The position numbers and the translations under genes were made by a program. 38,257 nt of DNA, from positions 1-38,257 of the forward strand of contig CBDURG010000001.1 in assembly GCA_965369805.1 (NCBI GenBank), given 5' to 3'. The stretch comes from an uncultured bacterium. GTDB lineage: Bacteria; Auribacterota; UBA6266. Below the pieces are notes generated by a model that had not been told where the DNA came from, searched no databases, and saw only the letters and a list, made by a program, of their open reading frames with translations. Positions within the stretch are counted from its first letter, which is position 1, and each line of letters starts with the position of its first letter. Positions 7,212-34,895 of the stretch are shown here, piece after piece.

Positions 7212-7829
7212 ATGTTTAAACATATTCTCAGGGAACTAAAAAAACACGCCCCTTTTACTGCTTTTGGAGCAATTACCGGAATATTAATCATAATATACTT
7301 TCAAAAACTGTCCTTCAAAACTTCATATGATATTTTCTACATACTTCACCCAATGCATATCCTGTTAAGCGCCTTTGTAACCGCGTCCATGTATAAAATC
7401 CACAAAGATAAATGCAGCTTATGGATTCTATTAGCTATTGGCTACACAGGCTCTATAGGAATAGCAACGCTAAGCGATTCATTAACGCCATATCTGGCAG
7501 AGAGCCTGCTTAATATGCCAAACAGGCATGTACACATAGGCTTTATTGAAAAATGGTGGCTTATTAACCCGCTGGCAATATTGGGCGCGGCAATAGCATA
7601 TTTTAAACCAAGAACAAAACTTCCTCACGGCGGGCATGTCTTATTAAGCACCTGGGCATCAGTCTTTCACATTATTATGGCTAAAGGAGAACCTTCACAC
7701 TGGTTCGCGTATATCAGCATTTTTCTGTTTCTTTTTATCGCGGTATGGATACCCTGTTGTTTAAGCGACATTATATTTCCAATGTTATTTGTAAAAGCAG
7801 ATGAAAAAAAGCACCTCCAAAACCATTAA
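7212..7829 (+). CDS. polytopic membrane protein with conserved His motifs, function unknown
   Basis: 205 aa, about 6 hydrophobic segments. HPMH, HVH and HGGH motifs. No family recognised with confidence. Confidence 0.5.
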   Translation: MFKHILRELKKHAPFTAFGAITGILIIIYFQKLSFKTSYDIFYILHPMHILLSAFVTASMYKIHKDKCSLWILLAIGYTGSIGIATLSDSLTPYLAESLLNMPNRHVHIGFIEKWWLINPLAILGAAIAYFKPRTKLPHGGHVLLSTWASVFHIIMAKGEPSHWFAYISIFLFLFIAVWIPCCLSDIIFPMLFVKADEKKHLQNH

Positions 7830-13430: not shown

Positions 13431-13508
13431 GTAGTTACAACGGGAAGTGGATGAGGAAGAAAATGGGAAAAGTCCCAAGCAAGCGCAGCGAGCGGGTGGA
13501 CTGTCCCT
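13431..13508 (+). repeat. structured terminator-like repeat, copy A (intact, unoccupied intron target)
   Basis: GTAGTTACAACGGGAAGTG...AAGAAAATGGGAAAAGTCCCAAGCAAGCGCAGCGAGCGGGTGGACTGTCCCT. Near-identical to 28788-28853 plus 30746-30750 and to the reverse complement of 32354-32405. Lies between convergent ogg and the GAF-ANTAR gene. Confidence 0.8.
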
Positions 13509-13513
13509 ATTTA

Positions 13514-14278
13514 TTATTTTTTCTTTCTTCCCTGGCGCATGTCACATGCCAGAATCATCGCTTCCGCTATTTCCTTCATGGTTTTGCGATTATCCATGGC
13601 AAATTTTTGTATCTTATTATAGGCTTCCTGCTCTGTTAATTTTTCTTCTTCCATTAACAGGCCCTTTGCCTTCTCGATTTTTTTACGTGATTCAAGTTCT
13701 TCCTGTATCACCCTGGTTTTTACCATAAGTTCGGTGTTTTCAATCGCGACGGCGGCCTGATGGGCTATGGTCTTCAGTATGTTGATTTCGCCGTAGGAAA
13801 ACTCATGAGTAACCGGAGTATAACAATTTATAACACCTATAACCTTTCCCTTAACTGTAAGAGGCACACAAAGCAGCGACTTTAAACCCTCATTTTTAGC
13901 CATATCATGATATTTATATTCCTTTTCCAAACTGACATCTTTTACCGAAATCGGCTTGTTTTCTTTCGCGGCCTTGCCTGAAATCCCTTCGCCTATCTTA
14001 ATTGGGGGTTTTTTATTATATTCATCACTTACGCTCTGGGTTGCCCGTATTGTAAGTTCTTTCTTTCTCTCGTCAAGAAGCATTAAAGTACATATATTTG
14101 AGTTCATCACCTGAGCGGTAACCGCGACTATAAGTTTAAGAATGTCTTCAAGATAGTTATCCGAAGCAATCGCCTTGCTTATTTTAAACAGGGCTTCAAG
14201 CTGTTTCTCATTTTCTTTCATATCAAAATCCTCATTTTTTAATGTCGAGATAGCAAATTGCTTTTTGTTCAAGGACAT
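13514..14278 (-). CDS. GAF domain + ANTAR domain RNA-binding antiterminator
   Basis: GAF-like core (LMLLDERKKELTIRA...GEGISGKA...) and C-terminal ANTAR (ESRKKIEKAKGLLMEEEKLTEQEAYNKIQKFAMDNRKTMKEIAEAMI). The likely true start is the ATG at 14221 (MKENEKQ), preceded by GAGGA that overlaps the upstream gene's TGA stop. Confidence 0.85.
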   Translation of the reverse strand: MSLNKKQFAISTLKNEDFDMKENEKQLEALFKISKAIASDNYLEDILKLIVAVTAQVMNSNICTLMLLDERKKELTIRATQSVSDEYNKKPPIKIGEGISGKAAKENKPISVKDVSLEKEYKYHDMAKNEGLKSLLCVPLTVKGKVIGVINCYTPVTHEFSYGEINILKTIAHQAAVAIENTELMVKTRVIQEELESRKKIEKAKGLLMEEEKLTEQEAYNKIQKFAMDNRKTMKEIAEAMILACDMRQGRKKK

Positions 14279-24994: not shown

Positions 24995-25071
24995 ATTTCA
25001 TCTCCTATTATTTTAATACTTTCTCCATAAACCCAGCAATCCTTTGGATTGCAGAGAACAAAATCAGGGAT

Positions 25072-25118
25072 AAACAAAAAAAGGCACTCAAAAACCCTGC
25101 AGGTTTAAGAACGCCTTT
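25072..25118 (-). terminator. intrinsic terminator inside the glnA leader
   Basis: RNA sense AAAGGCGUUCUUAAACC-CUGCAG-GGUUUUUGAGUGCCUUU (about 15 bp with a 2x2 internal loop) followed by UUUUGUUU. Lies about 75 nt upstream of the glnN ATG. Confidence 0.55.
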
Positions 25119-28663: not shown

Positions 28664-28787
28664 CCAAAAAAAAGGCCTATAATTATCCCTTAAAGGGCAG
28701 CCTTTTCGAATCTTTATTCAATTCCGCTTTAAATCCTCTTACAGAGAAATCGAGAGACGGTTCACTTAACTTCTGGTGGGAAAGAAA

Positions 28788-28853
28788 GTGATTACAACGG
28801 GAAGTGAAGAAAATGGGGAGAGTCCCAAGCGAGCGCAACGAGCGGGTGGACTG
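28788..28853 (+). repeat. structured terminator-like repeat, copy B (interrupted by the group II intron; tail resumes at 30746)
   Basis: GTGATTACAACGGGAAGTGAAGAAAATGGGGAGAGTCCCAAGCGAGCGCAACGAGCGGGTGGACTG, then the intron, then TCCCTATTT at 30746. Collinear with copy A. Confidence 0.8.
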
Positions 28854-28886
28854 GTCGAGTAGACGTTTATTTCAACGCCCCTCACA

Positions 28887-28919
28887 GAACCGTACTTGAG
28901 GTTTTCCCTCATACGGCTC
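28887..28919 (-). ncRNA. group II intron domain V (catalytic hairpin)
   Basis: Matches the canonical GAGCCGUAU...GAAA...GUACGGUUC architecture with the AGC triad. Confidence 0.8.
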
Positions 28920-28934
28920 TTCAGTAAATCTCAC

Positions 28935-30272
28935 TCAACATGTAACTTTGTAAAAGCTGTGAACAATGCGTGGTCGTGGTAACGGAAACTTCTTCAGGTA
29001 CGCGTTATACTGCGCCATATTGAAGGATTTCTTCTGACTTCGTCTATTCATCCATTTAAACACCATCCATATCACTCGATAGTAGAACTCCTGCATACTC
29101 CTGAAGTTCTCACTTACTCCGTAATATTGATAGTGCCCTCTCAGTTTAGACACAAGAAGCTTCCACCAATCTTTTGCTTTGGTGCCGCTGACTTCTTTAA
29201 GCCACTCCTTCATTTTCCGACAGGCTAGTCGAAATTTCTTTGACGCTGTTTTACGACATACCTTAAACTTCCCTTTCTTGCTTTTTCCACAATAGTGAGT
29301 AAATCCAAGAAAATTAAATGTGTTCATTCTGCGCTGTTGTTTCTTAGCGTTCTCCTTCTCATATCGCCCAAAACTTTTCACACCTGTCTTCTCGGAATGC
29401 AGCTCCAGTTCATATTCTTCAAACCTCTTCTGCATTAGTCTCATGATTTCCTCTGCCTCTGCTTTATACTGCACCAGTATGACAAAGTCATCACAATATC
29501 TCACTAAATAACACTGCCCTTTCATATGCGGTTTGATTTCCTCCTCAAACCATTCATCGAGTACATAGTGCAAATATACATTCGCCAATAACGGACTTAT
29601 ATTCCCTCCTTGCGGAGTCCCCTTCTTTGTCTCATAAAACACATCATCTTCCTTGTATCCTGCTATCAAGAATCGTCTGATGTACCTCAGAAACCTTTCA
29701 TCCGTTATTCTTTTCCTTATCAATTCTATGAGTTTATCATGTGGTACATTATCAAAAAATCCCTTGATGTCCGCTTCTATCACATGGTTTATTGGCTTAA
29801 AATTGATAAGTTCTCCAACTTGCTTTAACGCGGCATGACATCCTGTCCGTCGTCGAAATCCATACGAACAATCCAGATAATACTGCTCATAAATCGCTTC
29901 CATTATACGACTCATTACCTTCTGCACCATCTTGTCCTCTACCGTCGGTAATCCTAATGGCCGTCGACTATTCTTATCTTTTGGAATATACACTCGCCTT
30001 GTCGGCTGTGGCCTGTATCCCATTCGTCTCATACGTTCTAGCAAGTCTTTGATGTTGGCGTTTAGTTCTTTACCGTACTCTTCCCAGCTTACTCCGTCTA
30101 TTCCCCCCGCTCGGTTCCTGCCAAGCCACTGAAGGAAACTCATCTCAAGTGAGCCTTCATTAACTAAATGCATTAAGTTATTAAACTTAATACAGGGCTC
30201 CCTGGATGCACGCTGTGATATGAGGTGCAATTTCTTTAACACTTCTTTTGCCATTTCAGGGTATGACTCCAT
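28935..30272 (-). CDS. group II intron reverse transcriptase/maturase (no endonuclease domain seen)
   Basis: 445 aa. RT blocks (RRVYIPK, RPLGLPTVEDK, GTPQGGNISPLLANVYL, YCDDFVIL), X/maturase (LRGHYQYYG). Ends without an HNH motif. Confidence 0.93.
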   Translation of the reverse strand: MESYPEMAKEVLKKLHLISQRASREPCIKFNNLMHLVNEGSLEMSFLQWLGRNRAGGIDGVSWEEYGKELNANIKDLLERMRRMGYRPQPTRRVYIPKDKNSRRPLGLPTVEDKMVQKVMSRIMEAIYEQYYLDCSYGFRRRTGCHAALKQVGELINFKPINHVIEADIKGFFDNVPHDKLIELIRKRITDERFLRYIRRFLIAGYKEDDVFYETKKGTPQGGNISPLLANVYLHYVLDEWFEEEIKPHMKGQCYLVRYCDDFVILVQYKAEAEEIMRLMQKRFEEYELELHSEKTGVKSFGRYEKENAKKQQRRMNTFNFLGFTHYCGKSKKGKFKVCRKTASKKFRLACRKMKEWLKEVSGTKAKDWWKLLVSKLRGHYQYYGVSENFRSMQEFYYRVIWMVFKWMNRRSQKKSFNMAQYNAYLKKFPLPRPRIVHSFYKVTC

Positions 30273-30787
30273 GTTTACTTGCTCCCTCTGCGTTTTACTG
30301 CTAACCCCTTCGAGTGGGTTTTCCCCTCATAAGGCATTACCCTTATTACTCCTCTACTATGAGTTAGTCCGAATACCAATACATCATACTGTCTCCTCAC
30401 TTCTTCAGCTTGTTAACAGCTTATTAAGAAATGTATCGGGCCTCCCAAGTTCCAACTTAGACATACTGCATTGCCCTCTGCGGACTACGACCCCGGCAGG
30501 ACTCCATGCACTCACCATATTCATGCATCTCGTGGTTGGCTTCAGGTTAGGGAACACCCTCGCCCACTGCGATTGAAATTTCGAGGCTCAATACCTTCAC
30601 TTGCGTTACAGTTGACAATCTCCTTCCCTCCGGCTCCATGCAGTTCGTTACCTCCCTGCATGCAGAGTTCCGTACCAACCAACTGGTGGTTAGCCGTTAG
30701 TCGGGCGGTTTTACCGCTTGCCTAAATTAGCTTTGCTTGGCGCACTCCCTATTTCCCTCTATTTCCCTTGCCCAAAGCTATAAATTT

Positions 30788-31399
30788 CTAGATTTTAATA
30801 AATGCTTTAAGGAATTTCGGCCTTGCGTAAAATGCTCTGGAAGTTGAGCCGTGGCCTGCACCTTTTGTGCGTGGTTGAATATAAACTCCCATCTTCCCAG
30901 TTAAGGCATTAAAACCTTTACGCGGGTTAAGGAGTGTATTTCTAACCAAATCATAATCTGATTTTACTGCTTCGTAAAGATTCCCTTGTAGATTAAATTC
31001 TGTTACGGAGTAGATGTAGGTAGGCTCGTCAACACTATTACCGACTGTCCGGGCAATCACAACTGCCTTCATAAGCTTTGCTAATAGATGGCTTTCTTCA
31101 AATTCTTTCTGGCAAACATTTACAGGATCTATCATTGTAATTGCCATTGTTTCTTTAAATGCTATCTTACCATCTTTCTTATATTTCAAAGGAATAGATT
31201 TTAGTTCCCATGACCCAAAATTGGGAGACCGTGCAGAATTGATAGGAAGCCCCAAATATCGTTCAAAAACATGCCCTGCCCACCCTTTATTGACCTTTTT
31301 CCCTTTATAAATAGTAATCCCATATTTCTTTGCAAGTTCGTGAAGCTCTTGCCCCACAAGTTGCTTAAGTTTTTGAACTGCTTCTACTCTTTCCATCAA
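30788..31399 (-). CDS. MutH/Sau3AI-family GATC endonuclease-like protein
   Basis: 203 aa, collinear by eye with E. coli MutH. NKGWAGHVFERYLG matches DKGWIGVLLEIWLG, WELKSIP matches VELKTIP, YIQPRTKGAG matches YLQIRPKAAN, and RAFYARPKFLKAFI matches RGFYLKKNFTSALL. Confidence 0.8.
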   Translation of the reverse strand: MMERVEAVQKLKQLVGQELHELAKKYGITIYKGKKVNKGWAGHVFERYLGLPINSARSPNFGSWELKSIPLKYKKDGKIAFKETMAITMIDPVNVCQKEFEESHLLAKLMKAVVIARTVGNSVDEPTYIYSVTEFNLQGNLYEAVKSDYDLVRNTLLNPRKGFNALTGKMGVYIQPRTKGAGHGSTSRAFYARPKFLKAFIKI

Positions 31400-32248: not shown

Positions 32249-32308
32249 CAGTTTGTCTCTTTTTTTAGATTATCTAATAACTAATAAAATACATTCCTCG
32301 AAAACATA

Positions 32309-32641
32309 TTAACATAAATCAAACACTTCTCCATCTTCTAACGTAAAGAAAAAAGGGACAGTCCACCCGCTCACTGCGCTCGCTTGGGACTTTTCCCATT
32401 TTCTTATAAAACCCTTCCAATTTCTCGAATCTGTATGTGTCATGTTTCTAAACGTGCCAAATTTCTTTAATACACCACGCGCCAAATCAATAGCACTAAT
32501 TCCGGGCGTTCCGGTGCGCAAAAGAATGGCCAGAAGCTCTGAATTACTTAAACTCCGAGTGCCTTTCTTTAACAGTTTTTCTCGTGGCCTGTCATCTACC
32601 GGCCAATTTTTTATGCCTGTTGATTTCTTCTCTTTTACCAT
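32309..32641 (-). pseudogene. radC: radC N-terminal fragment (JAB domain missing) fused in frame to repeat copy C
   Basis: WPVDDRPREKLLKKGTRSLSNSELLAILLRTGTPGISAIDLARGVLKKFGT is the RadC HhH N-terminus. After about residue 62 (near 32455) the frame reads through unrelated DNA and the repeat (KWEKSQASAVSGWTVP) to a stop. Confidence 0.7.
32354..32405 (-). repeat. structured terminator-like repeat, copy C (core only, inverted relative to A and B)
   Basis: The reverse complement reads AAGAAAATGGGAAAAGTCCCAAGCGAGCGCAGTGAGCGGGTGGACTGTCCCT followed by TTTTTC. Two mismatches to the copy A core by eye. Confidence 0.8.
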
Positions 32642-34841: not shown

Positions 34842-34895
34842 TCTTTTCCACTTCTTCAACAGTTAAGTGAACTGTCCCCCGAACGCCAGAACTCA

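What the first reader, a model, noticed from the sequence alone, without database searches (positions are those of the whole stretch)
13431..13508. Family of near-identical structured, terminator-like repeats (three copies plus a possible remnant)
A 52-nt core, AAGAAAATGGGAAAAGTCCCAAGCGAGCGCAGYGAGCGGGTGGACTGTCCCT, occurs at:
- 13457-13508 (+);
- 28807-28853 plus 30746-30750 (+, split by an intron);
- 32354-32405 (-).

There are only 2-4 mismatches by eye. Copies A and B also share about 19 nt of upstream sequence (GTRNTTACAACGGGAAGTG).

The core can fold as GGGA-aa-AGUCC [22-nt loop containing the direct repeat GCGAGCGCA GCGAGCG] GGACU-g-UCCC. It is followed by T-rich sequence on both strands (TATTTATTATTTTTTC on one, ATTTTCTT on the other), so it looks like a bidirectional intrinsic terminator. 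Copy A sits between convergent genes. Copy B sits just after the stop of the R-M operon. Copy C sits at the radC truncation point.

Ordinary terminators do not share 50+ nt of identical loop and flank sequence. This looks like a dispersed (MITE/REP-like) element or a structured RNA module. A possible 12-nt remnant (GTGAACTGTCCC, 34867-34878) lies between convergent MATE and purF.
Basis: seen in the sequence. Interest (0 to 1): 0.62.

Follow-up and report, generated by a model that had tools for sequence, protein, structure and literature searches.

The report
REP-type hairpin repeat shaped like terminator
The three look-alike stretches are copies of a small hairpin-forming repeat of the REP kind that comes and goes at gene ends, and occasionally inside genes, in uncultured Auribacterota and Omnitrophota bacteria; it is a new family of a known type of selfish or domesticated DNA.

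Summary
A 60-nt unit (AAGAAAAT-GGGGAAAGTCCC-AAGCGAGCG-N-AGCGAGCGGGT-GGACTGTCCC-TTTTTTCTT) lies at 13457-13516(+) and 32346-32405(-). A third copy, at 28807-28853/30746-30758(+), is split by a group II intron.

It is a dispersed family:
- A sister MAG (Auribacterota RS_9_21, about 94% nt identity) holds at least 14 copies on 10 contigs.
- Five Omnitrophota MAGs and one Hydrogenedentota-labelled MAG carry it.
- Cold-seep, brine and sediment metagenomes hold it at roughly 5-38 times the flank depth, with many different flanks.

Each unit is a doublet of the palindrome GGGGAC-N-GTCCCC around a capped mini-hairpin (tandem G·A plus GCGNAGC). In Auribacterota it also has A-run and T-run arms. Copies sit 0-40 nt after stop codons in either orientation and between convergent genes. 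Two lie in frame inside genes (a Dus gene and a small ORF). A contig 99% identical on the 5' side lacks one copy.

A sister family with the same arms forms arrays on both sides of a RAYT-like Y1 transposase gene in another metagenome contig. The best reading is therefore a REP/REPIN-type repeat co-opted as a bidirectional terminator. Terminator activity, and a RAYT gene in this genome, could not be tested. The 12-nt "remnant" is not supported.

The parts
13457..13516 (+). Copy A of the 60-nt REP-doublet unit. Its T-run arm is degenerate (TATTTATTA). It lies 36 nt after the ogg stop and overlaps the GAF-ANTAR stop by 3 nt.
   Evidence: 74.6 bits
13425..13456 (+). Left accessory module (AAAAGTAGTTACAACGGGAAGTG...), shared with copy B and with L002 and L003b of the sister MAG.
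28780..28806 (+). Left accessory module of copy B.
28807..28853 (+). Copy B, first 47 nt, up to GGACTG.
28854..30745 (-). Group II intron (1892 nt, RT/maturase ORF 28935-30272) inserted in copy B between AGGGA and CAGTCC in intron sense. It has the same orientation as the R-M operon upstream of it.
30746..30758 (+). Copy B, remainder (TCCCTATTTCCCT). It lies about 30 nt after the stop of the MutH-like gene (30788-30790).
   Evidence: window/ENA base difference at 30751
32346..32405 (-). Copy C, a full 60-nt unit. It is read in frame +1 inside the truncated radC-like ORF 32309-32641.
   Evidence: 79.8 bits
32290..32345 (-). Right accessory module (TTAGAAGATGGAGAAGTGTTTGATTTATGTTAATATG), promoter-like. 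It precedes the methylase gene here and other genes in L002, L003 and L006. In L006 it lies immediately 5' of copy L006c rather than 3' of the core, so it is not a fixed part of the core.
34867..34878 (+). Claimed 12-nt remnant (GTGAACTGTCCC). It is an 11/12 match only and is not supported as a family member.

Best explanation
The repeat is a REP/REPIN-type non-autonomous palindromic element.

Anatomy (shown). Each 60-nt unit is a doublet of the 11-13-nt palindrome GGGGAC-N-GTCCCC; in the Auribacterota lineage the left copy has decayed to GGGGAAAGTCCC. The two copies pair with each other around a 22-nt spacer. The spacer folds into a capped mini-hairpin: GC, tandem G·A, GC, then a G-N-A triloop, that is GCGNAGC. 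In the Auribacterota lineage the unit also carries fixed arms AAGAAAAT and TTTTTTCTT, which give it the shape of an intrinsic terminator readable in both directions.

Also shown:
- dispersal across contigs, genomes and metagenomes;
- placement just after stop codons in either orientation, and between convergent genes;
- tolerated in-frame copies inside genes;
- one presence/absence difference against a contig 99% identical on the 5' side;
- copies at strain-specific rearrangement joints;
- a sister family with identical arms arrayed on both sides of a RAYT-like Y1 (HUH) transposase gene.

Inferred, not shown:
- copies are made in trans by a RAYT-type transposase acting on the folded single strand, and also by segmental duplication and recombination between copies;
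- once in place at a gene end, the hairpin plus U-run ends transcripts from either side or protects 3' ends, which is why copies persist there.
For: Dispersal:
- at least 14 copies on 10 contigs of MAG RS_9_21; that MAG is 93.9% identical to the window over 4.7 kb;
- copies in 5 Omnitrophota MAGs and 1 Hydrogenedentota-labelled MAG;
- summed depth about 5-38 times the flank depth, with many different flanks, in cold-seep, brine and sediment runs.

Structure:
- 88% of cells pair, against 45-57% when the partner is slid;
- the only freely varying inner position is the triloop centre (A, C, G or T);
- C>T changes at pairs 30-44 and 34-40 keep G-U pairs on the G-rich strand;
- GCGNAGC is the known extra-stable mini-hairpin (PMC13037366).

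Context: 9-10 of 24 copies lie within 40 nt of a stop codon, in both orientations. More distant relatives (about 77% protein identity) keep the ogg/GAF-ANTAR pair but with unrelated hairpins in the spacer.

Mobility: an X6 contig, 99% identical on the 5' side, has 26 other letters in place of copy L006c and restores the small ORF seen in the L002 paralogue.

Copies in genes: the Dus copy L207 is absent from the closest homologues. Dus genes of other species carry related hairpins at the same loop.

RAYT link:
- L237 has 109-nt-period arrays of GGGGACTGTCCCAAG...GCGTGGACTGTACCC on both sides of a 219-aa Y1_Tnp gene;
- the best NCBIfam match of that gene is the REP-associated tyrosine transposase (71 bits, against 16.5 for IS200).

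Precedent: REPINs with conserved A and T flanks have been read as co-opted terminators (PMC3337134).
Against: - No RAYT gene was found in the 78 kb of the window's own contig or in the RS_9_21 loci held.
- The unit lacks the GTAG or CGTC end tag of the classical REP super-families (A2; PMC3733652).
- The two palindromes have the same centre letter (T...T), giving a T·T mismatch, rather than the T...A expected of an inverted REPIN doublet.
- The empty/filled pair is a 27-nt to 60-nt replacement, not a clean insertion. The X6 contig also diverges 71 nt downstream, so it may be a very recent paralogue rather than an allele.
- Copy number is low for a REP family (tens). The other 40 kb of the own contig holds none.
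- The L237 RAYT scores just under NCBIfam's cutoff (71.4 against 80).
- No RNA data exist to show termination. The simple terminator scan does not call the long interrupted hairpin.
Confidence: 0.65

Rival explanations
1. It is a host-selected terminator cassette with no transposase. One efficient bidirectional terminator was copied to new gene ends by segmental duplication, illegitimate recombination and gene conversion, and is kept alike by selection on its function.
For: - Some copies share long flanks: L002 and L003b are 95% identical over 219 nt, and L209 and L212 share the downstream small gene.
- The filled/empty pair is a replacement without a target duplication.
- Copy number is low and no RAYT was seen in the DNA held.
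- The A-run and T-run arms covary.
Against: - Most copies share only the 60 nt, with sharp edges and unrelated flanks.
- The inner 45 nt is nearly identical across genomes whose proteins are only about 60-75% identical. Terminator function does not require that.
- Copies occur inside ORFs and in tandem arrays without U-runs.
- A sister family brackets a RAYT-like gene.
Confidence: 0.15
2. It is a protein-binding DNA site. The two GGGGAC-N-GTCCCC palindromes lie about three helical turns apart (centre to centre 33 bp) and would bind a dimeric regulator, a nucleoid protein or a recombinase on double-stranded DNA.
For: - Single GGGGAC-N-GTCCCC palindromes also occur alone in the Omnitrophota loci.
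- The arms are identical across lineages while the spacer can differ (L217, L237).
- Copies lie at rearrangement joints and bracket an R-M cassette and a PLD-nuclease gene.
Against: - G-U-compatible changes and the G-N-A triloop pattern point to a folded single strand, not to duplex recognition.
- Placement after stop codons and inside ORFs is odd for operators.
- No candidate binding-protein gene travels with the unit. The small gene after L212, L209 and L206 has no known family.
Confidence: 0.08
3. It is a structured RNA module, either a small RNA or a cis-regulatory or 3'-end-protecting element, whose function lies in the transcript rather than in DNA mobility.
For: - The G-rich strand folds well (-27.5 kcal/mol, z = -3.7).
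- Tandem G·A plus a triloop is a common RNA protein-binding shape.
- In L212, L209 and L206 the unit lies 10-100 nt before a small gene with no room for a promoter.
Against: - There is no Rfam match even at E<=10.
- Copies occur in both orientations relative to the flanking genes about equally.
- No promoter belongs to the unit.
- Copies lie in frame inside genes.
Confidence: 0.06
4. It is an attC-like cassette boundary. The units would mark the ends of gene cassettes moved by a site-specific recombinase: three same-sense copies follow successive genes in L006, and inverted copies bracket the R-M pair in the window.
For: - L006 holds three copies in one orientation after successive genes. Contigs of other strains join the end of one copy back to an upstream gene.
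- The R-M operon is bracketed by copies B and C.
Against: - There are no R''/R' (RYYYAAC/GTTRRRY) core sites.
- No integrase gene is present in the loci held.
- Most copies are single, between housekeeping genes and in both orientations.
- R-M genes 93% identical occur in other runs with different flanks.
Confidence: 0.04

Closest known systems
REP sequences and REPINs with REP-associated tyrosine transposases (RAYT / TnpA_REP); Bertels & Rainey 2011 (PMC3116915), 'Curiosities of REPINs and RAYTs' (PMC3337134), Di Nocera et al. 2013 (PMC3733652)
   Same: - Short palindromes repeated in extragenic space.
- Doublets that fold into one long hairpin in single-stranded DNA or in mRNA.
- Clusters and tandem arrays (L236, L237).
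- A sister family flanking a RAYT-like gene.
- Some REPIN classes carry conserved A and T flanks, read as co-option for termination.
- REPs inside genes are on record.
   Different: - No GTAG or CGTC tag.
- The two palindromes have the same centre letter, giving a T·T mismatch.
- The spacer is itself a conserved capped mini-hairpin.
- Tens rather than hundreds of copies per genome.
- The lineage is Auribacterota/Omnitrophota.
- The inner 45 nt is near-identical across MAGs carrying three different phylum labels.
- A RAYT gene in this genome has not been shown.
[quoted passage not shown]
   Same: A small dispersed repeat whose whole body looks like an intrinsic terminator and which sits at gene ends.
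   Different: The sequence and host are unrelated. The unit here is symmetric (A-run and T-run), has a conserved cap, and is linked through its arms to a RAYT-flanking family.
Rickettsia palindromic elements (RPE; Ogata et al. 2000, cited in PMC10969869 and PMC3733652)
   Same: Palindromic repeats found in frame inside protein-coding genes, where they add a loop of residues. Here these are Dus and a 53-aa ORF, both read as KK(M/I)G(K/T)VPSERSERVDCP.
   Different: RPEs are about 100-150 bp, are confined to Rickettsia, have a different sequence, and mostly lie inside genes. Here only 2-3 of 24 copies lie in ORFs.
d(GCGNAGC) mini-hairpin DNA (PMC13037366)
   Same: The cap of the unit is exactly GCGNAGC, with all four N seen, stacked on tandem G·A pairs.
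   Different: The mini-hairpin is a structural motif known from phage and plasmid priming sites and from oligonucleotide chemistry. It is not a repeat family, and its role here is unknown.

Membership tests
REP / REPIN-RAYT | Short imperfect palindromes repeated many times, mostly extragenic | tested here: met
   24 aligned copies in 8 genomes, at least 14 of them in RS_9_21, and mostly intergenic. Depth ratios are about 5-38 times in metagenomes.
REP / REPIN-RAYT | Doublet of REP units that folds into one hairpin (REPIN) | tested here: met
   Two GGGGAC-N-GTCCCC units pair across a 22-nt spacer. 88% of cells pair, against 45-57% when slid. However, both centres are T, so the doublet is direct by that letter.
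REP / REPIN-RAYT | GTAG (or CGTC) tetranucleotide tag at one end | tested here: not met
   No GTAG or CGTC lies at either foot in A2. The criterion is from PMC3733652.
REP / REPIN-RAYT | A RAYT (Y1/HUH) gene flanked by the same repeats in the same genome | not testable with these tools
No RAYT lies in the 78 kb of the own contig or in the loci held. The feature is met only for a sister family in another contig, L237.
REP / REPIN-RAYT | Presence/absence differences between close strains (excision or insertion) | tested here: inconclusive
   There is one case. An X6 contig, 99% identical over 174 nt, lacks copy L006c, but 27 nt are replaced rather than cleanly restored, and the contig diverges 71 nt further on.
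MITE | Target-site duplication flanking terminal inverted repeats | tested here: not met
   No direct repeats flank any copy, and the filled/empty pair shows none.
MITE | A parent IS element with the same terminal repeats | not tested
Intrinsic (rho-independent) terminator | GC-rich hairpin directly followed by a U-run; for bidirectional use, an A-run before it | tested here: met
   The sequence and fold fit, and the A-run/T-run arms covary. The simple scan only calls a 5-bp sub-hairpin on the reverse strand.
Intrinsic (rho-independent) terminator | Transcript 3' ends mapping to the U-run | not testable with these tools
   No RNA runs were listed for this organism.
Rickettsia palindromic elements (RPE) | In-frame insertion in protein-coding genes with the ORF kept open | tested here: met
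   Dus in L207 and the small ORF at L006c. This is a shared behaviour only: the sequence, size and host differ, so the unit is not a member.
Integron attC | R''/L''...L'/R' sites with a GTTRRRY core, and a linked IntI gene | tested here: not met
   No such cores are in A2, and no integrase is among the neighbouring genes.
Any Rfam RNA family | Covariance-model match | tested here: not met
   Only the group II intron models match in the window. Nothing meaningful appears at E<=10 on copy A.

The most novel reading that the evidence does not exclude
The unit is more than a passive REP. A RAYT-type enzyme would recognise the GGGGAC-N-GTCCCC arms across phyla, and pairs of units would act as portable ends that move or swap the genes between them. 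Candidates are the GATC R-M pair between copies B and C, and the PLD-nuclease gene between copies a and b of L006. The A/T-armed form would at the same time insulate the cassette transcriptionally from both sides. That would make it a REPIN-bounded cassette system for defence genes.
Probability: 0.1. Interest if true: 0.7.

Novelty: new member of a known kind. Interest (0 to 1): 0.4.

Why it matters
It adds a well-delimited REP/REPIN-like family to a barely studied part of the PVC group (Auribacterota and Omnitrophota).

Four features are unusual for REPs:
- a conserved GCGNAGC mini-hairpin cap on tandem G·A pairs;
- fixed A-run and T-run arms that make each copy a ready-made two-way terminator;
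- near-identity of the inner 45 nt across MAGs with three different phylum labels;
- tolerated in-frame copies in a housekeeping enzyme gene.

For annotation, it explains:
- recurring odd peptides (…GTVPSERSERVDCP…) in predicted proteins;
- assembly breaks at these units;
- strain-specific rearrangement joints.

It also offers a compact candidate terminator part and a candidate substrate for studying RAYT specificity.

Tried and rejected
Copy counts therefore come from pattern scans, Logan contigs and a walk along the window's own ENA scaffold.
- A loose gapped genome scan returned only chance hits in unrelated phyla and was wasted.
- Two JGI metagenome scans found nothing real. The single hit is an EF-Tu gene and is chance.
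- Stop-free in all six frames: this is true of the consensus (0.2% of shuffles) but of only 5 of 24 real copies. It was rejected as a family trait.
- Strand asymmetry by energy: DNA-parameter folds differ little between strands. The asymmetry rests only on G-U/G·A compatibility.
- Intron homing specific to this repeat: a related intron (RT 66% identical) sits in a different target, so one occupied copy does not make the repeat a family-wide homing site.
- radC disrupted by the cassette: no radC 3' half lies beyond copy B, and an intact radC exists on the same contig. The window's radC' is an extra partial copy.
- Integron-like array: there are no attC cores and no integrase.
- DNA-uptake-sequence idea: the 9-mer GGAC-N-GTCC is almost confined to the units.
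- The six-frame peptide search has low sensitivity: the known Dus case scored only E = 2. The rarity of in-gene copies cannot be concluded from it.
- The RNA-run search gave none.

Full report
**Observation**

No match occurred in 100 shuffles (sequences).

The third copy runs 28807-28853 and stops at GGACTG. A group II intron on the minus strand follows:
- Rfam RF00029 at 28854-28921 and RF02005 at 30481-30713;
- an RT/maturase ORF at 28935-30272 (Pfam RVT_1, TIGR04416);
- a 5' end GTGCGCC at 30745.

The repeat resumes at 30746 (TCCCT...).

Aligned with copies from elsewhere, the unit is 60 nt with sharp edges: AAGAAAATGGGGAAAGTCCCAAGCGAGCGCAGCGAGCGGGTGGACTGTCCCTTTTTTCTT (A1).

Two accessory modules accompany some copies:
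- A left module (AAAAGTGATTACAACGGGRAG...) is present at A, B, L002 and L003b.
- A right, promoter-like module (TTAGAAGATGGAGAAG.G.T.GATTTATGTTAA.ATG) is present at C, L002, L003a and L003b. In L006 it lies immediately 5' of copy L006c rather than 3' of the core, so its position relative to the core is not fixed.

The claimed 12-nt remnant at 34867-34878 is an 11/12 match. A covariance model built from 24 copies does not report it at E<=5. I do not count it.

The RT protein led to the source record, ENA ERZ23498674 scaffold_22 (92,934 nt). The window is the reverse complement of positions 54678-92934. Walking along that scaffold gave 78.4 kb in all. It holds only the three copies already in the window.

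The window differs from the ENA record by one base at 30751, next to the intron junction.

A GAF-ANTAR protein query showed that the window is 93.9% identical in DNA over 4.7 kb to MAG 'Candidatus Auribacterota bacterium RS_9_21'. Auribacterota is a PVC-group phylum.

**Dispersal**

Exact-pattern scans of one genome per species found the following:
- at least 14 copies on 10 contigs of RS_9_21;
- copies in five MAGs labelled Omnitrophota (BS750m-G14, BS750m-G21, Zod_Metabat.1444, SAG AM-311-C11 and Dive96_bin10.280, the last with two);
- one copy in a MAG labelled Hydrogenedentota.

Logan contigs of cold-seep, brine and marine-sediment runs contain relatives of the organism at depth about 15-20. 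They hold the unit at summed depth roughly 5-38 times that, with many different flanking sequences and short high-depth contigs that end at the unit. The tool warns that this is not a copy number.

JGI metagenome contigs hold none. The one hit is an EF-Tu gene, by chance.

The first refutation clause ('only in this 20-kb stretch') therefore fails. Within the own 78-kb contig, however, the three copies are locally clustered.

**Anatomy**

In the Omnitrophota copies the unit reads: A-run, GGGGACTGTCCC, AAGCGAGCG-N-AGCGAGCGCGT, GGACTGTCCCC, T-run.

It is a doublet of the palindrome GGGGAC-N-GTCCCC. The two copies pair with each other, with a central T·T mismatch, around a spacer. The spacer folds as GC, tandem G·A, GC, and a triloop G-N-A.

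On 24 ungapped copies (A2) the results were:
- The named structure pairs 88% of cells, against 45-57% when the 3' partners are slid.
- The only freely varying inner position is the triloop centre; all four bases are seen.
- Two pairs vary G-C to G-U (30-44 and 34-40), which fits only the G-rich strand.
- The A-run and T-run arms covary (for example pair 10-65: GC in 14 copies, AU in 6).

Twenty-six positions were fixed by the search pattern, so inner conservation is partly by construction and covariation is weak.

GCGNAGC is the known 'mini-hairpin' DNA motif, with Tm 70-76 °C for all four N (PMC13037366).

In Auribacterota the left palindrome has changed (CT to AA) and the arms are fixed as AAGAAAAT and TTTTTTCTT. 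The RNA fold is -27.5 kcal/mol, z = -3.7. DNA-parameter folds of the two strands differ little.

There is no Rfam family match.

**Context**

Of the 24 copies, 9-10 lie within 40 nt of the stop codon of a flanking gene. About equal numbers are in forward and reverse sense. Several lie between convergent genes: window A, L213b.

Copy A is 36 nt after ogg and overlaps the stop of the GAF-ANTAR gene. More distant relatives (about 77% protein identity) keep this convergent pair but have unrelated hairpins in the spacer.

This is the placement and shape expected of a two-way intrinsic terminator. No RNA runs were listed, so function is inferred only. The simple scan does not accept the long interrupted stem.

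**Copies inside genes**

L006c lies inside a small ORF, in frame (60 nt, read KKMGKVPSERSERVDCPFFL). The paralogue in L002 lacks it.

L207 lies in the same frame inside a tRNA-dihydrouridine synthase gene:
- Pfam Dus, 1e-63;
- against PDB 1vhn the protein has about 35 extra residues there;
- the two closest homologues (72-76% identity) have no insert.

Dus genes of other species have inserts of other lengths at the same loop. Their DNA shows related hairpins with the same arms but another spacer, in the opposite orientation: L217 at 42.7 bits with the model, and L219 decayed at 18.9 bits.

So the second refutation clause ('a gene fragment') does not apply. The gene copies are insertions, as with RPEs and the intragenic REPs on record (PMC10969869; PMC3733652).

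The consensus is stop-free in all six frames, but only 5 of 24 copies are. I drop that as a trait.

**Mobility and rearrangement**

A 391-nt contig of run X6 is 99% identical to L006 over 174 nt. It joins position 7491 to 7551 with 26 other letters in place of the unit. That restores ...DSVAEKVVEKIKEEQLL, as in the L002 paralogue.

This is a presence/absence difference without a target duplication, but it is a 27-to-60-nt replacement. The contig also departs from L006 71 nt further on, so it may be a very recent paralogue.

Unit edges also coincide with strain-specific joints:
- Synteny with RS_9_21 ends exactly at 13513/13514.
- Contigs of other strains join the ends of L006 copies back to an upstream gene, invert next to L003a, or join the flanks of L005 and L001.

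Some copies spread with their flanks: L002 and L003b share 219 nt at 95% identity.

**Link to a transposase**

I searched with a query made of the six reading frames of the unit. Sensitivity was low: the known Dus case scored only E = 2. The search found ORFs laid over arrays of units.

One ORF lies in Dive96_bin10.280. There, three tandem units without A/T runs lie beside other hairpin repeats.

Another lies in a 398-kb ENA contig of 60% G+C (L237):
- Arrays with a 109-nt period contain GGGGACTGTCCCAAG-GGCGCCGCAAGGCGACC-GCGTGGACTGTACCC. The arms are the same and the cap is a different one.
- The arrays lie on both sides of a 219-aa gene with Pfam Y1_Tnp.
- An inverted unit whose spacer is closer to ours lies directly before the gene's start.
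- The protein has the HUH motif (HVHLIV). Its best NCBIfam match is 'REP-associated tyrosine transposase' at 71.4 bits (cutoff 80), against 16.5 bits for IS200.

This is the arrangement that defines REP/RAYT systems (PMC3116915; PMC3337134). Those papers also describe REP doublets (REPINs) flanked by conserved A and T runs, read as co-option for termination.

No RAYT homologue lies in the DNA I hold from the window's contig or from RS_9_21. Whether this genome has one is open.

Notes from earlier agents of this scan describe the same GGGGAC-N-GTCCCC palindromes as REP-type, RAYT-linked and sometimes intragenic in other Omnitrophota windows. I reached the RAYT link before reading them. They are not independent evidence.

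**The intron and the R-M pair**

The intron sits in copy B, in the same sense as the R-M operon, between AGGGA and CAGTCC. A related intron (RT 66% identical, 'Ca. Ancaeobacter') lies in a different target. The occupied copy is therefore a single event, not evidence that the repeat is the family's homing site.

Copies B and C are inverted and bracket only the methylase/MutH-like pair. R-M genes 93% identical occur in other runs with other flanks. In L006, copies bracket a PLD-like nuclease gene next to an HsdR gene.

This is suggestive of cassette behaviour but is not shown.

The radC-like ORF that contains copy C is an extra N-terminal fragment. An intact radC lies on the same scaffold, and no 3' half follows copy B.

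**Verdict**

This is a real, dispersed, REP/REPIN-type hairpin repeat with terminator-like arms: a new family of a known kind in a little-studied lineage.

- Shown: anatomy, dispersal, placement, in-gene copies, one presence/absence case, and RAYT-flanking by a sister family.
- Inferred: mobilisation by a RAYT in this lineage, and terminator activity.
- Departures from classical REPs: no GTAG/CGTC tag, same-centre doublet, conserved mini-hairpin cap, low copy number.

Noticed in passing
window 30751: The window has A (+ strand) where the public ENA scaffold of the same contig has C. This is the only difference in 19 kb compared. It lies 6 nt from the intron 5' junction, inside the T-arm of copy B.
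   Followed up: partly
L226 2102-2770 (same scaffold, outside the window): An intact 222-aa RadC gene (PF04002) lies on the same contig. The window's 110-aa radC-like ORF (32309-32641) next to the PRiA4_ORF3 gene is therefore an extra N-terminal fragment, not the disrupted housekeeping copy.
   Followed up: partly
L212 (minus) about 10 nt after the unit; L209; L206 7365-8003: A 66-aa gene (MWPFSIYKLL...WIPKSQI...FEIYV) follows the unit in two RS_9_21 loci, one of them decayed, and in an Omnitrophota MAG. Brine-run contigs show the same junction. It has no Pfam or NCBIfam family, only a weak match to PHROG 8389 (unknown function). There is no room for a promoter between the unit and the start codon.
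   Followed up: partly
window 32290-32345 (-); L002, L003, L006: A roughly 45-nt promoter-like module (TTAGAAGATGGAGAAG.G.T.GATTTATGTTAA.ATG) recurs upstream of unrelated genes: the methylase, a 53-aa ORF and a permease-like gene. It lies 3' of the core in four loci and 5' of it in L006.
   Followed up: no
L191 3924, L194 7206, L217 5475, L213 5287, L206 7270-7500, L236 1935-2290: Other hairpin repeats of the 'GTCATTGC/GTCATCCC...GCAATC/GGGATC' type are common in the Omnitrophota loci. They are capped by the same GAGCG-N-AGCGA motif or by GCGAAAGC. One sits in frame inside the small gene in L206 (…HCHPRESGDP…).
   Followed up: partly
L125 4718-8714 (RS_9_21): In the sister MAG, the DNA after the GAF-ANTAR stop is not ogg. 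It is a 'GACGCAGAGAACGCAGAGA / CACAAATGAACACAAATCGACACAAATTA' spacer followed by a small Cys-rich peptide gene and a radical-SAM-like gene. The break is exactly at the edge of copy A.
   Followed up: no
window 25036-25074 and L003 1133-1171: A 39-nt stretch of the glnA leader is 92% identical to DNA right beside copy L003a. The region L003 1130-1420 has very high depth in the brine run, which suggests another repeat family.
   Followed up: no
L227-L235: An intron whose RT is 66% identical (Ca. Ancaeobacter aquaticus and lake metagenomes) is found in at least two contexts that share the 18 nt AATTTAGTATGGTGTCCC before its 5' end.
   Followed up: partly
L004 176-260 (minus strand): One RS_9_21 copy lies about 60 nt downstream of what looks by eye like the 3' end of a tRNA or tmRNA gene (GGTTCGACTCCCATCGGCTCCACCA). 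No tRNA scan was run.
   Followed up: no
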